A stretch of 64,000 bases of DNA from the human T2T-CHM13v2.0 reference genome, Homo sapiens. The position numbers and the translations under genes are program-made. Shown one piece after another: positions 2,791 through 51,019 of this stretch. The notes under the pieces were generated by a model. It made no database searches and was not told the DNA's origin. It was given only the letters and a program-made list of their open reading frames with translations. Every line of letters begins with the position of its first letter. Position 1 is the stretch's first letter. Where the stretch lies: assembly GCF_009914755.1 (NCBI RefSeq), contig NC_060932.1; one strand, written 5' to 3'.

Positions 2791-2824
2791 GAGACAATTT
2801 GACTTCCTCTTTTCCTATCTTTTC

Positions 2825-5245
<2,421 letters not shown>

Positions 5246-23277: not shown

Positions 23278-25304
23278 CAATTTCTGTCTTTTAAGAGAGT
23301 TTAATACACTTTCTTCAATATTCTTACTGATAAGGTAAAATTTACCTCTACCTTTTTGTTTTCTACATGTCATGTCTTTTTCTTTTTCTTTTCCTCCATT
23401 ACTGCCTTCTTTTGTGTTAATCAATATTTTTAATGTATTATTTTAATTCTTTTGTCAATTTTACTATATGTTTTTTGTTATTTTATTAGAGATGGTGCTG
23501 GGAATTAAAATTAGCATCTTAATTTATAACAACCTAGTGTAATTCAGATCAACACTAATTTAATTTCAGTAGTATACAAAGGCCTGCTCTATATGGCTCT
23601 ACTCCCTCCCTAGTTTTTGAGTTTTATTGTCATACAAATTACAGCATGATACACTGTATGCCCATCAACATAGATTTATAATTACTGCTTTATGCAGTAA
23701 TCTGTTAAATCAGAAATAGGAAAAAAATTATTACAAGCAGAAAATGCACTTATATTGTCTTTTATATATACTTACATATTACCTTTACCAGTGCTCTGAA
23801 TTTCTAAATACCAGTTTGATTTATTGTCTAGAACTCTTTCATTTTGGCCTAAAGGACTACCTTTAGTATTTCTTGTAGGACAGGTTTGCTAGCAATGGAT
23901 TCTCTCCTTTTTTGTTTAGCTCAGATGTCTTTATATCTCCATTGTTTCAGTATAATTTTGCTGAGTATAGAAACCACTGTTGAAAGCACTCTGATTATGT
24001 TATCCTATTGCCTCCTGGCTTCAGTGATTTCTGATGAGAAACTAGCTGTTAATCATATTGAAGATCTCTTATACGTAAGGAATCGTTTCTCTCTTGCTAC
24101 TTTCATGCTTTTTTGTCTTTGGTTTTCAACAGTTTGATTATGATGTGTTCTAGATGTGAATCTTGTTGAATTTATTCTACTTGGAGTGTGTTGACTTCAG
24201 ATGTGTCAAAGACTCACAGTCCTGAACATGCACACAATGCTACACATGTGCATCAATGTCAAGATTTCCAGATATATGTTACAGCTTTACAAAGTTCCTT
24301 ATAGACAAGCTCAGGAGTATGGATTGTTGTAGACTAATGTTTCTCATCAAATGTGGAAGTTTTCAGTCATTATTTCTTCAAATATTAATTTCTATCCATT
24401 TCTATCTCTCCTCTCCTTCTGGAATTCTCATCATATGTATGTTGGTACATTTGGTGGTGTTCCACAAGTCTCTGAGGTTCTGTATATTTTTCCTTATTCT
24501 TTTTTTCTTCTGATCCTCAGACTGGAAAACCTCAATTGACCTGTCATGTTCTCTATTTCTGATTTCAGCCTGCTCAAACCTGCTGTTGATCACCTCTACT
24601 AAATGTTTAATTTCAGCTATTGTCTTTATCTATAGCATTTCTAGTTTTATCTTTTCTATCTCTCTATTGATATTCTCTTTTTGGTGAGACATCATTCTTA
24701 ATTTCCATTAGTTCTTTAGATGTGGTTTCCTTTAATTCTTTAAGCATATTTAAAATGACTGATTTAAAGTCTTTGTCTAATAAATTCAACATCTGGGCTT
24801 CCTCATGGAACAGTTTTAATTGACTGTTTTTTCTAGTGTTTATTCACATGTCTCACATTTTTGTCGAAAACTGATACTTTTTAAAAACGGAAATGCAAAG
24901 TCAGGTTCTACTCCCTCTCCAAGGTTTGTTTTTATTACTGTTTGTTGTCAATTGTCTTTTTAGTGACTTTTCTGAACTGACTCTATAAAGCCTGTATTTT
25001 TTCTCACTTTTGACACCTGGAGCCTCTGCTCATTTAGCTTAGTGGTCAGCTAATGATTGTATAGAGAATTCTTTTAAATGTCTGGAACCAGTAAGTCTTT
25101 GCAAAGGAACCAGTAGAGGCTTTGTCAAGATACTCTATGTGTGTGTTGGGCATGCTTTCAACACTCAGCCAGGCAGTTTATAACTCTGCCTTAGCCTTCA
25201 CTTCTTGCTTGTGCAGGGTCTAGAAGTTATACAGAGCTGAAACTCAGGTCTTTCCTGAGCATACTCACAGTCCTGAACATGCACACAGCCCTACACATGT
25301 GCAT

Positions 25305-25745: not shown

Positions 25746-26992
25746 GCATCAATGTCAAGATTTCCAGAAACATGTTAGAGCTTTTCAAAGTTCCTTACAG
25801 ACATTTTATTCCCCAGAATTTTCTCTTGAGCTCTTTTGTTAGCCTATTTGCCCCCCAGCTGTTATCTACCACCTTAGGCAGGCAAAATGTTAAACAATTG
25901 CCTCTCATTGTTTTGACAAATGCCCCTGGAGAAAAGGTTATCCACACTAAATGAGCTATGACTGCAAGCTGTTCTTTTTTAAGGCTTCTGCAGATCTGGG
26001 CAAGGAAATGGGAACAGGGCAAGTTAAAATGTCACATATTTCACTGTTTCTGCAGAGATTAGCCTATTTGTCTTAACTAAACTGCAGATTTCTCCAAGCT
26101 TTTTAAAATTTTCAAATTGCTGAAAAAGTTAATTTTGGCTTTTTTGTGAGTATTTTCATTGTGTTTATGAAGGAGAATATTTTTGGAGGTCTTTGCCATT
26201 TTCACTGAATCCTCTTTTCATTCTCCAATTTGATACATAATCTTTTTATTAATCTGTTTGAGCAAACTTTTTGCTCAGGTTTGGAATGTTGAGTTTTCCT
26301 TGGGGTCTCATTTAATTACTAAATATTATTAATCAATTTTTATTTATACCTATGCATATATACAGATTTGTACAAATAGCTACAAAAGGAGACACATTAT
26401 TTGCAAAATCCCGATAGTCATGGACACACACACAAATGCACCCCCTCCCCGTCACCAACCCAATAAAATTCCTACTGAACTCTAGCATTCACTAATTCTG
26501 TCCTTACATGCATGCCAACTGGCTTACTTATAGTTATGCAGGAGAGAAACAAGTAGGAGCTACAGTGTGACAGATGCAGCAATTTCTGCAAGAATAATGA
26601 TCCTACCCCCTCAGGTCACACCACCTTCAACCTTTATCAGAAACTTTTGCCTTGAACAGTTGAAGAGAAAAGAAACTGGAAATGCAATAAGGCTCTCTTC
26701 ATATCACCTTCCTTTTCACTTAGATAAGAAATAGAAGACAAAGATCTAGGACTTTAAGTCACCTGGAATAGCTTCTAATGTGATCTATGCATTTTCAGGT
26801 CACCCAACTTTTGATCTTCCCAATGTTGACTGCTCAACTTACAGACTTCACTGAAAACCTGGAAAAGTTTCCTTTGAACAGGTAGAAATTGCATTGCTAA
26901 TGTTGGGCCAATTTTAGTTATGCTAATTGCTAACGAGAAAAGGTGTTAAACATTAAAATATACAAGTTGCATCAAACCTACCTGTCAAATGT

Positions 26993-27305
<313 letters not shown>

Positions 27306-28704
27306 CAAATTTTTTTTTTTTCTTGAAGCAGAATGATGTTATTCTACAACAAAGAGTGGAAAGCTTCTATGTAGATTAGGCACATTTGGAGTTTTCTAGT
27401 AACAACTTTATAAGGCCCTTGCACTGGAGCCTATAAAACACACAAGTAAAGATCCTTGGCTCTGAAGGCAACCTGCCAGAATCTCAGTAGTATTCACTTT
27501 AAAAATAATAACTTTGTGGACTAAACAGTATTTATGCAACTGAAAACAACATATTGCCTTTAATAAAATGAAAGGTACACTAGGAAAGGCCAGCTGTAAA
27601 GAATATTCTTGAGTAGTAAGCACAGAAGTAAATTCAACATTCCTTTTCCTAATAGGAAAAAAAAAAGGAAATTTTTATCTGCCTTTTTTTTAAACCTAAG
27701 AAATTCATGAGAGAAATATATATGTGGCTTCTTCCTTCCTTTGAAGGAAATTTTTCCATGTTTTCAGTGAAGTCTATAAGTTGTACAATCAGCATTGGGA
27801 AGATCAAAAAGATAATGCTCAGAGCACACCTTAAAACAAAACATAAAGGAGACTTATAGTACAGGGAAGGAAGTAAAATATTTAAGGGCTGTTGGGGGGT
27901 ACGAAAGTCTAATTCACTAGGTACAGGTTTGCTGTCACCAACCCTTATCTTCTAACTGAAGTTTTGTACTTTCAATATCTATAGCTTATCACAGGACCCA
28001 TCTTAAAAGCTTGAGAAATCATGCTTTAAAAATATATTTCTCACTTGTGTTGTACCCAATCCCAGACAGAGTTGTGGAAATCAGCACATACCATTTGCCC
28101 ATTAAACATCTCCTTCTTTCTTGTGTCTGAAAATCTTCATATTGTTTTTCTGTAGAAATAATTTACATTTAAAACGTAACACAGGGCTGTGAAATGTAGT
28201 CATGGAAACCATGACAGTAGGGATAAAAGAGAGATTTGAGGAGTTAGTGAGTGTTTTTGATTTTTCAAATACAATAGTTCCCTTAAGCAAAGTCAGTTGT
28301 GCCATATGGTGAACTGTGTGTGGTAATTTTCTAAGCTTGCAAATAGAATTCTGCAAAATGTGATCAACTGCTAAGTCAATGCAATCCAAGTGAGCTCAAA
28401 TTCTGCTCTTGCTCACTATTCCTAGGGATATACTGCAAACAAACAAACACTTAGTATTTAATTTTAAGAACCCCAAAACAAAGATTTATGTGATAGGATA
28501 GAAATTCACCAAAATCATTTAACTTTAAAGAACGGAGAAACAGTCGGTTTCAGAAGGCCACAGACTTTGTTGCACACTCATTGTCTATGTGAATCTCTAA
28601 ATTAGCCTGAGATTCAGTTCCTGCCCTCGCTCCATCACCCCAAACCCATAATATTGCCATTATTGTCTTCTTGAGGCAAACATTTTCTGTGTCATAAATC
28701 TTTA

Positions 28705-32295: not shown

Positions 32296-32732
32296 TTCCC
32301 CAAACTAAAGTTATTGTTATCTGAGAGCCTCAGGTAAGTTAAAGACAAAAATTAAACATAATAATTAATAACTAAGTAATAATTCATAAGTAAATACAGA
32401 AATCGTACATATCTATATGTAAGAAATGTTGAAAAACAAAACAATAAATCAAATCCTCAGGTTTTGCACAATGTTTGATTTTTTAAAAATTTTCTGCACT
32501 TATTATAATCTAAATATTTGCCTTACATTTCATTTTCACTGGACAAGTATTGTATTGAAAGTCTATGACTGCAAGAGAAAATAGCACTATTCTTGGCACT
32601 ATGGATACCAGTATAGCCAACACTTGCTTACTTATTACTTATTTACTGATGAATTATTGCTTACTTATTATGTTTAACTTTTGTCTTTAATCTACCTGAG
32701 GCTCTCAGATAACAATAACTTCAGTTTGGGAA
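32296..32732. repeat. Inverted repeat, ~95-100 bp arms (32296-32396 and 32640-32732), ~243-bp spacer
   Basis: Arms aligned by hand, including a 29-bp perfect core tacctgaggctctcagataacaataactt. Confidence 0.92.
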
Positions 32733-32999
32733 AATTCTAAGGCATCTTCCCAAACTGAACAAGTAAAGTCAAGTCCTCTGGTTTTGCATTCATATGTACA
32801 AGCGTAATGGACAGAATTAGGGCAAAGTCTGATGAGGTTCTGATGAACTAGGTAGGTTCAGGGGGAGGGTGCAAGGGGGATATTGCCCCAGCAACACAAT
32901 TCCTACAATGGGAAAAAGACCAGATCGAGGTTAAAAAAAAAAAAAAAAAGCTAAACTTTTGGTTCTTTGAATGTCACATTGGCAAGTTTAAACTTTTTC

Positions 33000-45477: not shown

Positions 45478-46038
45478 TTTTTGACCCACATTATTGCATC
45501 AGTGCCCTTCTAACCAGGACCCATGAACATTAACATTCTTATCGCTTCCCCTTTGTCTTCCCTTCTTCCCAAGCCCAGTGCCTTTTTCTAGTTGAGGATT
45601 GTGATGGAGTCCTTGACTCCTCCACCTGCTCTTCAACATTTTCTTGCTGTCTTTCAGTTGATGAAAAGGCCCTAGGCATTGAGGAGGGAACAGAACAAGA
45701 ACAGGGATAGATACAGGCCGTCTGCTTGAGACAGTGCCACATCTCTTCCCTGAGGCAATGAAAGCAAAGAGGGAGAAAGAGGAGAAATTGATGGAGGTGA
45801 CATTAAGTCATACTTTCAAGATATTAAGCTACTTTACTCAGTATCACCATTACTTTTTTAGTTTTTGTTTATTGTTTATTGTTTATGTACCTTTTAACTC
45901 ATTAGTTCTCACTGGTCAACATTTTGGGAATGAAGATTCCCAGAAGTTACTTCTGCTGCTATTATCTTTTGTCTGTTTCTATTCTTTTTTGAGTGTCAAG
46001 CAGGGGCCCCTAAAAACTTGACTGTATTATTTTGGATA

Positions 46039-46152
46039 CATGTCCTTTGGAGGGACATGGATGAAGCTGGAAAGCATCATTCTCAGCAAACTAACACAGG
46101 AACAGAAAACCAAACACCTCATGTTCTTACTCATAAGTGGGAGCTGAACAAT
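46039..46152 (+). mobile_element. Isolated 114-bp L1PA fragment, an inverted copy of 47613-47726
   Basis: 2 mismatches to the reverse complement of 47613-47726 by manual alignment. No tail or TSD. Confidence 0.9.
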
Positions 46153-47284
46153 ACCAGCAGCCCTCTCTTCGACTCCATTATCCTGGGTTAGACAGGATTC
46201 ACTGGATGTGAGGGAAGTCACAACTCCTGAAATTTCTACATGAAAAAATAAATCCCTGACCATTAGAATGATGAGCCTTTTGAGTAACTAAACATCTTTC
46301 ACAATATGGCTATTTCAGCTTGTCTTATTTATTTAAGCCACAATAAGAAATTCTCTTAAAAAATAAAAATAAAAATCTGAACTCTTAAGAGTTAGTGCAT
46401 CTTTGCCTGAATATTGAACAGCTATAGACTCACAGAAAGCTTTAAGAAACTATTTTAGGGAACATATTGACACAGCAATCCTTAATTGAATGTTACCAAC
46501 TGCTTCATATCATATATTTAGAAAGAACCTGTTTATGTTGTTTTGCTACTCCAATGAATAAAGTCAGAATGGTTTAATCATCTTTTAAACATCAAATAGT
46601 CTTTATTTTAACAAATGTCTTTATTGGCCCAGGATTTGAAACCCTAGTCACTAGAGCAAGACAACACAGCCATTTTTATGCCAGCAAAAGAAGCAGCTAT
46701 GAGGCCTCACGGATAACAGAAAGAATTATCACACACCCAACTTACTGCCTGGCACAATCTATGTGATACTGAAACAGATCATTGAAAATCAAAACATGTA
46801 ACCTCTCCAATAGTTATTTCAGCTGTACATTGACAAATAGTTGGGTTGATTGTATTTTATTTCTGGCTAATAGATTTCAGATTTTAATTACTGACTGAGA
46901 CAACTGGATTAAAAAAATAATTTATGCCAGAGATGACTTGGAAAGGAAGGCTGACAAAAGAAAAGAGGATCATTTTCCAACCAATCTGGAAAAAAATGAC
47001 TAAAAACTCCGTAAATAATTCTAACGAAGGGCCTGTGGCAATAAGCTGCTTAACTTAACTGGAAAGGAAGAAACACAAAGCCCATGAATGAGGAAAAGGC
47101 ATCAATACTTTTAGATACATGGGGTTGAAAAAAATGAGTCCCATTTCACAGTCTCTTCAGTAAAATCTTAAATGATGGCTACAAACATATTATAGTAACC
47201 TGAAGCTAATAAAACTACTATCATATCACATTACAAATATGAGAAAATTAGTGTACAACATTTCATGTAATCAACAATTACATT

Positions 47285-48523
47285 TTTTTTTCGTGGAATC
47301 TATTCTGCAGGCAGGAAGCAGAGACTCTGTGACTCTGGAGAGTTTTGAGCAGGGTGGCACGAGGCATGCAAACATTTTCTTGGCTGTTTTTTTATTTTTA
47401 TTATTATTTTTTAATTATACTTTAAGCTCTGGGGTACATGTGCAGAACGTGAAGGTTTGTTACATAGGTATACATGTGCCATGGTGGTTTGCTGCACCCA
47501 TCAACCCATCACCTATATTAGGTATTTATCCTAATGCTATCCCTCCCCTAGCTCTCCACCCCCTGACAGGCCCCAGTGTGTGATATTCCCCTCGCTATGT
47601 CCATGTGTTCTCATTGTTCGGCTCCCACTTATGAGTAAGAACATGAGGTGTTTGGTTTTCTGTTCCTGTGTTAGTTTGCTGAGAATGATGGTTTCCAGCT
47701 TCATCCATGTCCCTCCAAAGGACATGAACTCATCCTTTTTTATGGCTGCATAGTATTTCATGGTGTATATGTGCCACATTTTCTTTATCCAATCTATCAT
47801 TGATGGACATTTAGGTTGGTTCCAAGTCTTTGCTATTGTGAATAGTGCTGCAATAAACATATGCATGCATGTGTCTTTATAGTATAATGATTTATAATCC
47901 TTCAGGTATATACCCAGTAATGGGATTGCTGGGTCAAATGGTATTTCTGGTTCTAGATCCTTGAGGAATCAGCACACTGTCTTCCACAATGGCTGAACTA
48001 ATTTACACTCCCACCAACAATGGAAAAGCTTTCCTATTTCTTCTCATCCTCTCCATCGTCTATTGTTTCCTGACTTTTTAATGATCGCCATTCTAACTGG
48101 CGTGAGATGGCATCTCATTGTGATTTTGATTTGCATTTCTCTAATGACCAGTGATGATCAGCTTTTTTTCATATGTTTGTTGGTCACATAAATGTCTTCT
48201 TTTGAGAAGTGTCTTTTCATATCCTTTGCACAACTTTTGATGGGGTTGTTTTTTTCTTGTAAATTTGTTTAAGTTCCTTGTAGATTCTGTATATTAGCCC
48301 TTTGTCAGATGGACAGATTGCAAAAATTTTCTCCCATTCTGTAGGTTGCTTGTTCACTCTGATGATAGTTTCTTTTGCTGTGCAGAAGCTCTTTAGTTTA
48401 ATTAGATCCTATTTATCAATTTTGGCTTTTGTTGCCATTGCTTTTGGTGTTTTAGTCATGAGGTCTTTGCCCATGCCTATGTCCTGAATGGTATTGCCTA
48501 GGTTTTTCTTCTAGGGCTTTTAT
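47285..48523 (-). mobile_element. 5'-truncated L1PA (7/8-like) with a 3' transduction
   Basis: Reverse L1PA 3' UTR/ORF2 end at 47413-48523, first tail 47387-47412, unique 47292-47386, second T-run. TSD aacaattacatt at 47273-47284 and 48524-48535. Confidence 0.93.
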
Positions 48524-50179
48524 AACAATTACATTCATATTTATGTTGAGAGGCACACAAAAATACCAGCAGCCCTGTTAGATTTGGGGCACTTTTCTTC
48601 CTTTCTTCTGCCCTCAAAACATTATGCAATATGGCTAAGTTGCTCACAGAAATATGAAAATATGAATTAACTGAAAAGACATATTGGTTTTAAGAGGAGC
48701 ACTTAGGTAAATCTCACAGAGCTCTGAAACCAAGTTGGCACTCAAGACGTGATTGCCACTTCCTCCATTCCCTAAAACTTGCATAACAGGGTTCCGTGGC
48801 TTCAGGAAACCTCCAGAGACAACAGCAGACTTCTCAAACTGCTGCATCATTAACACCCGTTTGACAACTTTGTCTTAATTAGTGTTTCAGAATAGCTGGA
48901 CTCTATAATGTGATGAAGCTTTAGGAATACCTTTACCAATTTATTCTGTTTCCATTCTCTTTTCTTGTATTCACATGGAGTAACATGTGAAAAAATATTT
49001 CTGGGTTTAATCAAGGTTAAGATAACTCTTTTAACAGGGATAAAATGAATATTCCAAGTGAGCGGAATCATGATGCCATAGTTTCATTGGCAGCCATTTT
49101 TCTTTAGCGGTATGTAAATATCGGAAGAGTCTGCAATCAGTGGTGTCTTAGATTGAATGAAACACTGCATTGTGGTAATGAGGAAACACAGGCATGTTTA
49201 GCAAGCTTTTTAGGTACTTTGGGCATCTTCAATTATTTTGGAACTACTGTACCCTCCTATTTTATTTAACATTATATACATTATTTAGGGGAAAGTCATT
49301 AACTCCATTAACAGGTAGTTTGTTAATGGATAGAGGTCTCAAAAACATAAAGAACAGTGAAATAATATCAAGACTAAAGATGGTTAAAAATTATCTCAAG
49401 AAAAACAGAAATCAGAGAGTTTTTATGACTTCTAATCATTTGGGAGAAATAATCAGTCTTTAAGGACAACTGTGGATATAAGAGTACCCAGGCAGGCAAC
49501 TACAGGGACAAGGGCTATCATTTTCATTATGTCCAAAGGAACAAAACCAGGAGAACAGAACATCTGCATATTGCCCCTCTCTTTCTTTACCTAATAGTAG
49601 TGAGTTAATAAACCCTCTCTGACCAGTGGCTACTGCTTAGTGGACTATATAATACAATTAACATATTTGCATTTTAATAAGATGTGGATTGAGCTCACAC
49701 GTTCTTTTGAAGACCAAAGAACCCAGACTTCAGAAAGCCGATAAAGGCAGATGATCATGTGACTTTTTTCCTGGATTTTTAGGGCCAGTCTTTCCCTGGA
49801 ATGAAGAAAGAGGTTTCCCCAGAGAGAATGAACATTTCCACGGCCAAGAATCCTGGGAAGTGATAAATTCTAGGGCAGGAAATAAAGACTCTATGGAGAA
49901 GTATGAGCTTGGAAATTGGCCAGGAGCTAGCTGGGCTGGAACTCTGTGGTCTGGAGACAACTGGAACATTTGGAGGAGGTGGGCAGGACACTGAATTGCT
50001 ACTGCCCATGTGAAGGCAAAGTACCCTCTTGGCGTGAGTCCTGGCCTGCGCAATTTTTCTGTGTTGTATTTTCCTTATGTAATAGTTTCAAGAGCTCCTA
50101 ATATAAGGTTCCTTTTTGGTGACATTGTTTTCTTCCCTCTTTCTTTTATGACATTTATTACTACAAGGAAAGGGAAAGA

Positions 50180-50696
50180 AGCAGGTACTAGATTCTGTTT
50201 ACGCATCACTCCAGATTTACGCACTTGCTTTGCTTTCTGACCTGTGAAGCCCCCAATAGAACTCACCCTCTTCCATAGATCATGGAGCCAGTTGTCTCCT
50301 GCCTTCACTGTGGCTACAGACCTAGAGGCTCAATGCAGCCAAATCCCCCCACATTCCTGTTGTGCTGAGGTTTGGGGGGACACCAGGACTTACTTGGCAC
50401 TCATGTTATAGTGAAAGCTCCATAGATCCAATTTTGACCTATAGGTTATGGAAGTGAGTGGACAGATGCTGCTTCCTTCCTTGCCCCTAGACAGAATGCT
50501 GGATATACAGTTTCTTCATTTATTCTCCCTAAAGATATCCCCAAAGGCCAAAGAATTTGCTTGCCATTAAGCTCAATAATATACTTCCTTACATTTTCTC
50601 TCCCTCTCTCCTGTTTTCTTGGCGTTGCGTTTCCCCAATCCAATATTGGCACATTAGTTTGGCCTCAGGCTCTGCTTTGTAGGAGATCTTAACTGA
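50180..50696 (+). mobile_element. Degraded ERVL-class LTR
   Basis: 3' end ctccctctctcctgttttc...ggcctcaggctctgctttgtaggaga resembles LTR16/41-group termini. The 5' boundary is uncertain. Confidence 0.45.
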
Positions 50697-50928
50697 TGCA
50701 ATAAACATACGCGTGCATGTGTCTTTATAGTATAATGATTTATAATCCTTTGGGTATATACCCAGTAATGGGATTGCTGGGTCAAATGGTATTTCTGGTT
50801 CTAGATCCTTGAGGAATGGCCACACTGTCTTCCACAATGGTTGAACTAATTTGCACTCCCACCAACAGTGCAAAAGCTTTCCTATTTCTTCACATCCTCT
50901 CCATCATCTATTGTTTCCTGACTTTTTA
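50697..50928 (-). mobile_element. Isolated 232-bp L1PA fragment, paralogous to 47849-48080
   Basis: Ungapped manual alignment gives 13 mismatches. No tail or TSD. Confidence 0.9.
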
Positions 50929-51019
50929 TTCCCAAAAGTCCATCCTAGTAAGAAGGATAAGACAAAATACAAGATCTGGCCAGATAGAAGGAGGAGTGGT
51001 GAGAAATAAAATCATATGA

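What the first reader, a model, noticed from the sequence alone, without database searches (positions are those of the whole stretch)
50697..50928. Second orphan fragment of the same L1 lineage 2.2 kb downstream
Seen: 232 bp in direct orientation with 47849-48080, ungapped, 13 mismatches. It shares variants not in the 2.8-5.2 kb L1PA: tagtaTaatg, aaaagcTttcc, tatttcTtc, ctctccaTc, tctAttg. One site reads tttggg vs ttcagg, as expected from opposite-strand decay of one shared ancestral CpG. No tail or TSD. Inference: this is an older local copy, or a piece of the same cDNA deposited during the original insertion. One L1 therefore has two satellite fragments from non-overlapping parts of itself, one on each side, with different divergence (~2% vs ~6%), suggesting repeated use as a repair template.
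Basis: partly seen in the sequence, partly recalled or inferred. Interest (0 to 1): 0.72.

Follow-up and report, generated by a model that had tools for sequence, protein, structure and literature searches.

The report
Repair-copied scrap of neighbouring LINE-1
This 235-base piece of a human LINE-1 jumping gene shares rare mutations with a truncated LINE-1 about 2 kb away and was likely copied from it, long after that copy had died, while a DNA break was being patched, which is a known and probably ordinary kind of local duplication.

Summary
In detail: 232 bp, 13 mismatches, ungapped, no tail, no TSD. The fragment descends from the neighbouring truncated L1PA. Of its 10 non-majority alleles the local L1 shares 6, while 37 other copies share at most 2 (P about 6e-6). 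Genome-wide, only the local L1 carries all four alleles of a 42-nt test stretch. The 'same cDNA at insertion' idea is disfavoured. One shared allele destroys ORF2p C1130, and the fragment has too few private changes for the L1's age (P 0.009). New here: about 29 nt of filler, an acceptor site at the end of an old LTR-like repeat, and a 15-nt second donor on the upstream fragment. This fits repair-mediated duplication (Pace 2009), whose screen excluded repeat donors. 'Repeated, preferred template' is not shown: the two copy dates overlap (p 0.10-0.16), and the window holds three similar duplications of non-repeat DNA. No primate outgroup was available.

The parts
50694..50928 (-). Fragment 2 (the finding): L1PA ORF2 piece matching ORF2p residues 1123-1200, antisense on +; acceptor copy of 47846-48080
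50929..50957 (.). About 29 nt of non-L1 DNA at the right junction, likely filler; no second place in the genome at up to 3 mismatches
   Evidence: filler status inferred from motif spacing, no outgroup
50664..50964 (+). Acceptor site: two short motifs that lie 13-17 nt apart in other genome copies of an old LTR-like repeat end lie about 280 nt apart here
   Evidence: (22 hits, reversed control 0); the repeat class is recalled, not looked up
47387..48523 (-). Donor: 5'-truncated L1PA (L1PA7-like by recall) with A-rich tail; 5.0% from the panel majority
47846..48080 (-). Donor segment for fragment 2
47292..47386 (-). 3' transduced segment; its only other genome match is G000:C8:28578903-28578983, where no L1PA lies next to it
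   Evidence: 6 substitutions in 87, plus an 8-nt insertion
47273..47284 (.). 12-nt target-site duplication, copy 1 (followed by a short T run, the second tail)
48524..48535 (.). 12-nt target-site duplication, copy 2
46039..46152 (+). Fragment 1: inverted copy of 47613-47726 (end of ORF2); shares 4 of the L1's 5 derived alleles
46150..46164 (+). 15-nt exact copy of 48562-48576, overlapping fragment 1 by 3 nt; likely second donor of a chimeric insertion
   Evidence: background 134 of 45,492 unmasked positions have such a match within 5 kb
48562..48576 (+). Second donor for fragment 1, in genomic flank 27 nt beyond the right TSD and outside the L1 RNA

Best explanation
The fragment at 50694-50928 shares rare mutations with the truncated L1 at 47387-48523 and was likely copied from that chromosomal copy, after it had already decayed in place, into a likely double-strand break 2.2 kb away by templated repair synthesis (repair-mediated duplication). 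Shown: shared rare alleles, donor with TSD and tail, acceptor with neither, distance under 5 kb. Inferred, step 1: an L1 with a 3' transduction inserted by ordinary target-primed reverse transcription and mutated neutrally. Step 2: at roughly 0.56 of the L1's age ago (0.34-0.78), a broken end near 50694 invaded the L1 on the same, sister or homologous chromatid and copied about 235 nt. Step 3: it rejoined the other end with about 29 nt of filler. Step 4: fragment 1 arose the same way, probably later, from two templates (L1 and flank) joined at a 3-nt overlap. No function is implied; both fragments are likely neutral scars.
For: The local L1 shares 6 of the fragment's 10 non-majority alleles. 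Among 37 other L1PA copies, 19 share 0, 16 share 1 and 2 share 2; P 5.5e-6. With pattern-selected copies added, the maximum is 3 among 43. Genome-wide, 9 places lie within 2 mismatches of a 42-nt stretch; only the local L1 has all four test alleles and the other 7 have two. ML trees pair fragment and L1: 85.5/91 for fragment 2 and 93.3/97 for fragment 1. The shared 48056T falls in the codon for C1130, giving a stop in the fragment and Arg in the L1, against Cys in 41 of 43 copies. Four of the five rare shared alleles change the protein. The CTD is required for retrotransposition (PMC10830420, passages). Fragment-private changes are 4 in 235 against 5.0% whole-element divergence, P 0.009; for fragment 1, P 0.022. 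Size, distance, filler and two-donor chimeras all lie within the ranges of Pace 2009. Negative control: an orphan L1 piece 2.4 kb from an L1 in locus L016 shares 0 derived alleles with it.
Against: By raw identity the local L1 ranks only 7th of 44, and the best genome hit is on C11 at 96%; this is explained by 10-11 private changes in the L1 against 3-4 in the fragment, an asymmetry with p 0.09-0.12. Two pairs of unrelated loci have higher bootstrap (98, 96) than the fragment-L1 pair, so the tree alone is not decisive. No empty site in another primate was seen, so microhomology, deletion and filler are inferred. The LTR-like flank is weakly supported: clear upstream similarity in 2 of 12 loci, marginal in 3, and 3 of 12 downstream controls also exceed the shuffles. 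A DNA versus an RNA template cannot be told for fragment 2. The transduction clock is wide (6 of 87, CI 2.6-14%).
Confidence: 0.82

Rival explanations
1. The fragment is part of the same L1 RNA or cDNA, captured at a nearby break during the original insertion; the shared alleles were those of the source element.
For: The source L1 is missing from this assembly, so its alleles cannot be read. The transduction clock (3.4% per lineage, CI about 1.3-7%) does not alone exclude a younger insertion.
Against: The source would have carried a stop or Arg at C1130 and about 3% private divergence, yet no sibling with the haplotype was found (best whole-element hit 92%). Both fragments have fewer private changes than the L1's age predicts.
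Confidence: 0.05
2. A transcript of the dead local L1 was reverse-transcribed in trans and patched into the nearby break (an RNA-templated, non-classical L1 insertion from a local template).
For: It explains the shared alleles and the lack of tail and TSD equally well. Sen 2007 prefers RNA capture for tail-less L1 fragments (PMC1920257, passages).
Against: It does not by itself explain the proximity. Fragment 1 joins two donors read from opposite strands, one outside the L1. Three nearby duplications of non-repeat DNA show the same anatomy.
Confidence: 0.07
3. An independent L1PA fragment inserted first and was later homogenised by gene conversion from the neighbouring L1.
For: Orphan L1 pieces unrelated to the nearest L1 exist (L016). 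Conversion between close repeats is established knowledge.
Against: It needs two events and a tract spanning 47864-48062, nearly the whole fragment. It does not explain the second donor of fragment 1.
Confidence: 0.04
4. The fragment is an unrelated L1PA copy and the shared alleles are subfamily alleles or chance.
For: 48062A is a subfamily allele, and six copies are closer by raw identity.
Against: P 5.5e-6; the haplotype is unique in the genome-wide pattern search.
Confidence: 0.01

Closest known systems
Repair-mediated duplication (RD) by capture of proximal DNA, Pace et al. 2009, PMC2671141 (read: parts 1-6 of 8 of the text; Table S1 searched by terms)
   Same: Donor within 5 kb, 50-619 bp, no poly(A), filler of 1-68 nt, insertion into an older repeat, and chimeric acceptors with two donors 289-3,432 bp apart (here 836 bp).
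   Different: Their pipeline excluded donors that are part of a repeat, so an L1 donor is outside their list; no chr8 row near this place was found (the hg18 position is recalled). Here the donor is identified by shared post-insertion alleles.
Non-classical (endonuclease-independent) L1 insertion, NCLI, Sen et al. 2007, PMC1920257 (read: 12 passages)
   Same: L1 fragment with no tail and no TSD, and extra nucleotides at a junction.
   Different: Their 21 loci are young L1s (under 2% diverged) and the authors prefer mRNA capture, with SDSA minor. This fragment carries the alleles of an old, dead neighbour.
'Doublets' of Thomas et al., as cited in PMC2671141 (original not read)
   Same: Short local non-tandem duplications attributed to imperfect break repair.
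   Different: Those surveys covered short near-identical pairs; this pair is 235 bp and 6% diverged.
L1 3' transduction (established knowledge)
   Same: The donor L1 itself has tail, transduced flank, second tail and TSD.
   Different: It applies to the donor only; the fragments lack these marks.

Membership tests
Repair-mediated duplication (Pace 2009) | Donor and acceptor on one chromosome, more than 50 bp and less than 5 kb apart | tested here: met
   2.6 kb between donor segment and acceptor
Repair-mediated duplication (Pace 2009) | One identifiable donor | tested here: met
   Met by shared alleles, not by their best-BLAST-hit rule, which this repeat-derived case would fail
Repair-mediated duplication (Pace 2009) | No poly(A) tail or long TSD at the acceptor | tested here: met
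Repair-mediated duplication (Pace 2009) | Filler, microhomology or deletion at the breakpoints | tested here: inconclusive
   About 29 nt of filler inferred from motif spacing; 3-nt overlap between the two donors of fragment 1; no empty site seen
Repair-mediated duplication (Pace 2009) | Empty orthologous site in an outgroup that has the donor | not testable with these tools
   The genome tool holds no relatives of this assembly
Non-classical L1 insertion (Sen 2007) | L1 fragment lacking tail and TSD | tested here: met
Non-classical L1 insertion (Sen 2007) | Derived from a young, near-consensus L1 mRNA | tested here: not met
   Carries rare alleles of the old neighbour, including the change at C1130
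Classical TPRT insertion | 3' end with tail and TSD | tested here: not met
   Not met for the fragment; met for the donor L1
L1PA7 subfamily | Diagnostic positions against curated subfamily consensus | not testable with these tools
   No repeat library was used; the label is recalled. Panel copies are 3-7% from their majority

The most novel reading that the evidence does not exclude
A sizeable share of tail-less 'orphan' L1 fragments in primate genomes are DNA copies of a dead neighbouring L1 rather than captured L1 RNA. They form the repeat-donor half of repair-mediated duplication that the 2009 screen excluded. Some loci such as this one (five RD-like events in 64 kb, two from one 1.1-kb L1) would be long-lived break-and-patch hotspots. 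Shared post-insertion alleles give a simple genome-wide test and an internal clock.
Probability: 0.25. Interest if true: 0.55.

Novelty: new member of a known kind. Interest (0 to 1): 0.3.

Why it matters
As a single locus it is a neutral scar. Its value is methodological. A best-BLAST-hit rule assigns this fragment to chromosome 11, while shared rare alleles assign it to its neighbour and date the copy. A repeat annotator would count it as a separate L1 insertion or as RNA capture. If common, such copies inflate L1 insertion counts and hide a record of germline break repair. They also place direct and inverted repeats 1-3 kb apart, which could seed small deletions or inversions (inference; the same point is made for RDs in PMC2671141).

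Tried and rejected
1. Source element: the transduction search gave one other place, and 20 kb around it holds no L1PA next to the match, so source alleles could not be compared.
2. Second donor for the 29-nt filler: none in the window (best 19 of 29) or in the genome at up to 3 mismatches.
3. A 13-nt match across the left junction of fragment 2 to 45491-45503: noted, too short to use.
4. Different ages of the two fragments: not significant.
5. Hotspot: 3 unique-donor events in the window vs 1 in 57 control loci (220 kb, about 141 kb effective), p 0.09. Two tandem/VNTR-like control pairs (L028, L036) and all pairs hitting other loci were dropped before the count.
6. The CpG story at tttggg/ttcagg: possible, but needs one more event than the alternative.
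7. In one search the automatic frame for fragment 1 was wrong; it was redone. The 7/83 transduction figure was a miscount; one search gives 6/87.
8. Paper searches for a report of L1-donor local duplications found only Pace 2009 and Sen 2007 as relevant. A search for C1130 data found no direct test of that residue; the passages seen concern C1143/C1147 (PMC2951350) and the CTD as a whole.
9. The best genome hits of fragment 1 were ranked but their sequences were not aligned. Earlier scan findings were not seen.

Full report
1. Observation. The pair is real: 47849-48080 and 50697-50928 are 232 bp, ungapped, with 13 mismatches, extendable to 235 bp with 14. Similarity stops at both ends. There is no A-tail and no flanking direct repeat longer than 4 nt. 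The upstream fragment 46039-46152 is an inverted 114-bp copy of 47613-47726 with 2 mismatches.

2. The donor. The L1 lies on the minus strand at 47387-48523. It is followed by a 95-nt transduced piece (47292-47386) and a second short tail, and is bracketed by a 12-nt TSD at 47273-47284 and 48524-48535. The transduced piece has one other match in the genome (2 of 2 candidates scored). That place is an A-rich site just after a processed-pseudogene-like stretch (RPL5-like by recall), with no L1PA next to it in 20 kb. The source L1 is therefore absent from this assembly. The two copies differ at 6 of 87 sites. The local L1 is 5.0% from the majority of a 37-copy panel, typical of the panel. Its best whole-length relative among 40 scored of 16,662 candidates is 92% identical.

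3. Does the fragment come from this L1? Raw identity misleads. Among 40 scored of 4,799 candidates, four places score above the local L1, the best at 96% on C11. I aligned 7 of those 39 non-self hits, 29 of the 39, the window's other L1PA, and later the pattern hits. Polarised against the panel, the fragment has 10 non-majority alleles and the local L1 shares 6 of them (47864, 47885, 48030, 48042, 48056, 48062). Among 37 copies not chosen by pattern, 19 share none, 16 share one and 2 share two (P 5.5e-6). Seen from the L1's side, with the enriched 43-copy panel, P is 1.5e-3. A genome-wide exact-pattern search with a 42-nt stretch and up to 2 mismatches gave 9 places: the fragment, the local L1 with all four test alleles, and 7 others with two each, none with 48056T. 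Trees pair the two at 85.5/91, though two unrelated pairs reach 98 and 96. For fragment 1 the local L1 is the best non-self hit (98%, 40 scored of 2,320), shares 4 of 5 derived alleles against at most 1 in 44 copies, and pairs at 93.3/97. The test is not trivially positive: an orphan L1 piece in control locus L016 shares none with its neighbour (20-copy panel).

4. When was it copied? The segment matches ORF2p residues 1123-1200. The shared 48056T lies in codon 1130: stop in the fragment, Arg in the L1, Cys in 41 of 43 copies. Whichever of the two states existed at copying, that cysteine was already gone. That it is the first ligand of the CCHC motif is my recall; the papers seen state that the CTD is required for retrotransposition (PMC10830420 passages; bioRxiv 10.1101/721357 passages) and that L1 proteins prefer their own RNA (PMC2951350 passages). 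Four of five rare shared alleles in fragment 2 and three of four in fragment 1 are non-synonymous. These look like neutral decay after insertion, not alleles of an active source, although rare trans-mobilisation of a defective L1 cannot be excluded. The fragments also have fewer private changes than the L1's age predicts (P 0.009 and 0.022). A Poisson model puts fragment 2 at 0.56 of the L1's age (0.34-0.78) and fragment 1 at 0.20 (0.03-0.56). Both post-date the insertion; that they differ from each other is not established (p 0.10-0.16).

5. Junctions. Left of fragment 2 is a motif (50664-50678) that is followed within a short gap by a second motif in 22 genome places (reversed control 0; spacer 13-17 nt in the 12 measured). 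Here the second motif lies at 50958-50964. The simplest reading is an insertion into the end of an old LTR-like repeat, consisting of the L1 copy plus about 29 nt of filler that has no other genome match. Support beyond the motif is weak. Fragment 1 continues directly into a 15-nt exact copy of 48562-48576, just outside the L1's TSD, with a 3-nt overlap; 134 of 45,492 unmasked positions have such a match within 5 kb. Two donors on opposite strands, one outside the L1 transcript, point to DNA templates.

6. Mechanism. Most likely a germline break was patched by synthesis from nearby chromosomal DNA (SDSA-like, or polymerase-theta-type templated insertion; the sequence cannot separate these). 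The rivals are same-event cDNA, local RNA template, conversion and chance, and together they hold under 0.2.

7. Comparison. Pace et al. 2009 (PMC2671141; parts 1-6 of 8 read) describe 824 human duplications with donors within 5 kb, up to 619 bp, with filler and microhomology, and 20 two-donor chimeras. They state that repeat donors were excluded. Term searches of their Table S1 found no chr8 row at 65.4-65.8 Mb (one search showed 15 chr8 rows, 30 of 151 occurrences; the hg18 position is recalled). Sen et al. 2007 (passages) class tail-less L1 fragments as RNA capture and note one locus with a same-chromosome match. This locus works like an RD and meets every RD feature I could test except their best-hit rule; the empty-site test was not possible.

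8. Is the double use special? The window has three more local duplications of DNA not repeated in my loci, one a two-donor chimera with a 4-nt overlap. Controls gave 1 in about 141 kb effective; p 0.09. With rates of 7-48 per Mb, and assuming half of the events post-date the L1 and 50,000 such L1s, 0.4-18 L1s with two satellites are expected genome-wide by chance; with Pace's minimum rate, essentially none. So a preferred template is neither shown nor excluded.

9. Verdict. A real feature, correctly traced to its neighbour, and a new member of a known kind. Interest 0.3.

Noticed in passing
window 24212-24307 vs 25263-25304 and 25746-25803: Two-donor chimeric local duplication of non-repeat DNA: 42 bp (93%) and 58 bp (91%) joined at a 4-nt overlap; matches the chimeric RD model.
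   Followed up: partly
window 26809-26874 vs 27744-27809: 66-bp inverted local duplication, 89%, no hit in other loci held.
   Followed up: partly
window 32296-32396 vs 32640-32733: About 100-bp inverted local duplication, 85%.
   Followed up: partly
window 2791-2818 vs 3280-3307: 28-bp inverted copy at the 5' end of the 2.8-5.4 kb L1; possibly a 5' inversion or a templated junction piece.
   Followed up: no
L010 (G000:C8:28577403-28580483), about 390-1400 and 1470-1585: The transduction source is an A-rich site with no L1PA, about 80 bp after a processed pseudogene (RPL5-like by recall). The source L1 was probably polymorphic and lost, or deleted.
   Followed up: partly
window 47292-47386: The transduced piece has an 8-nt insertion relative to its source that looks like a small tandem duplication.
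   Followed up: no
L016 449-659: Orphan 211-bp L1 piece inside an Alu-like sequence, 2.4 kb from an L1PA, 94% identical to it but with no shared derived allele.
   Followed up: partly
L020 801-931 vs 3356-3491: 136-bp local duplication (89%) spanning an L1PA, another RD candidate.
   Followed up: no
window 47960-48071: The donor L1 is more mutated here (11 of 112) than on average (5.0%); over the 235-bp segment P is 0.09.
   Followed up: partly
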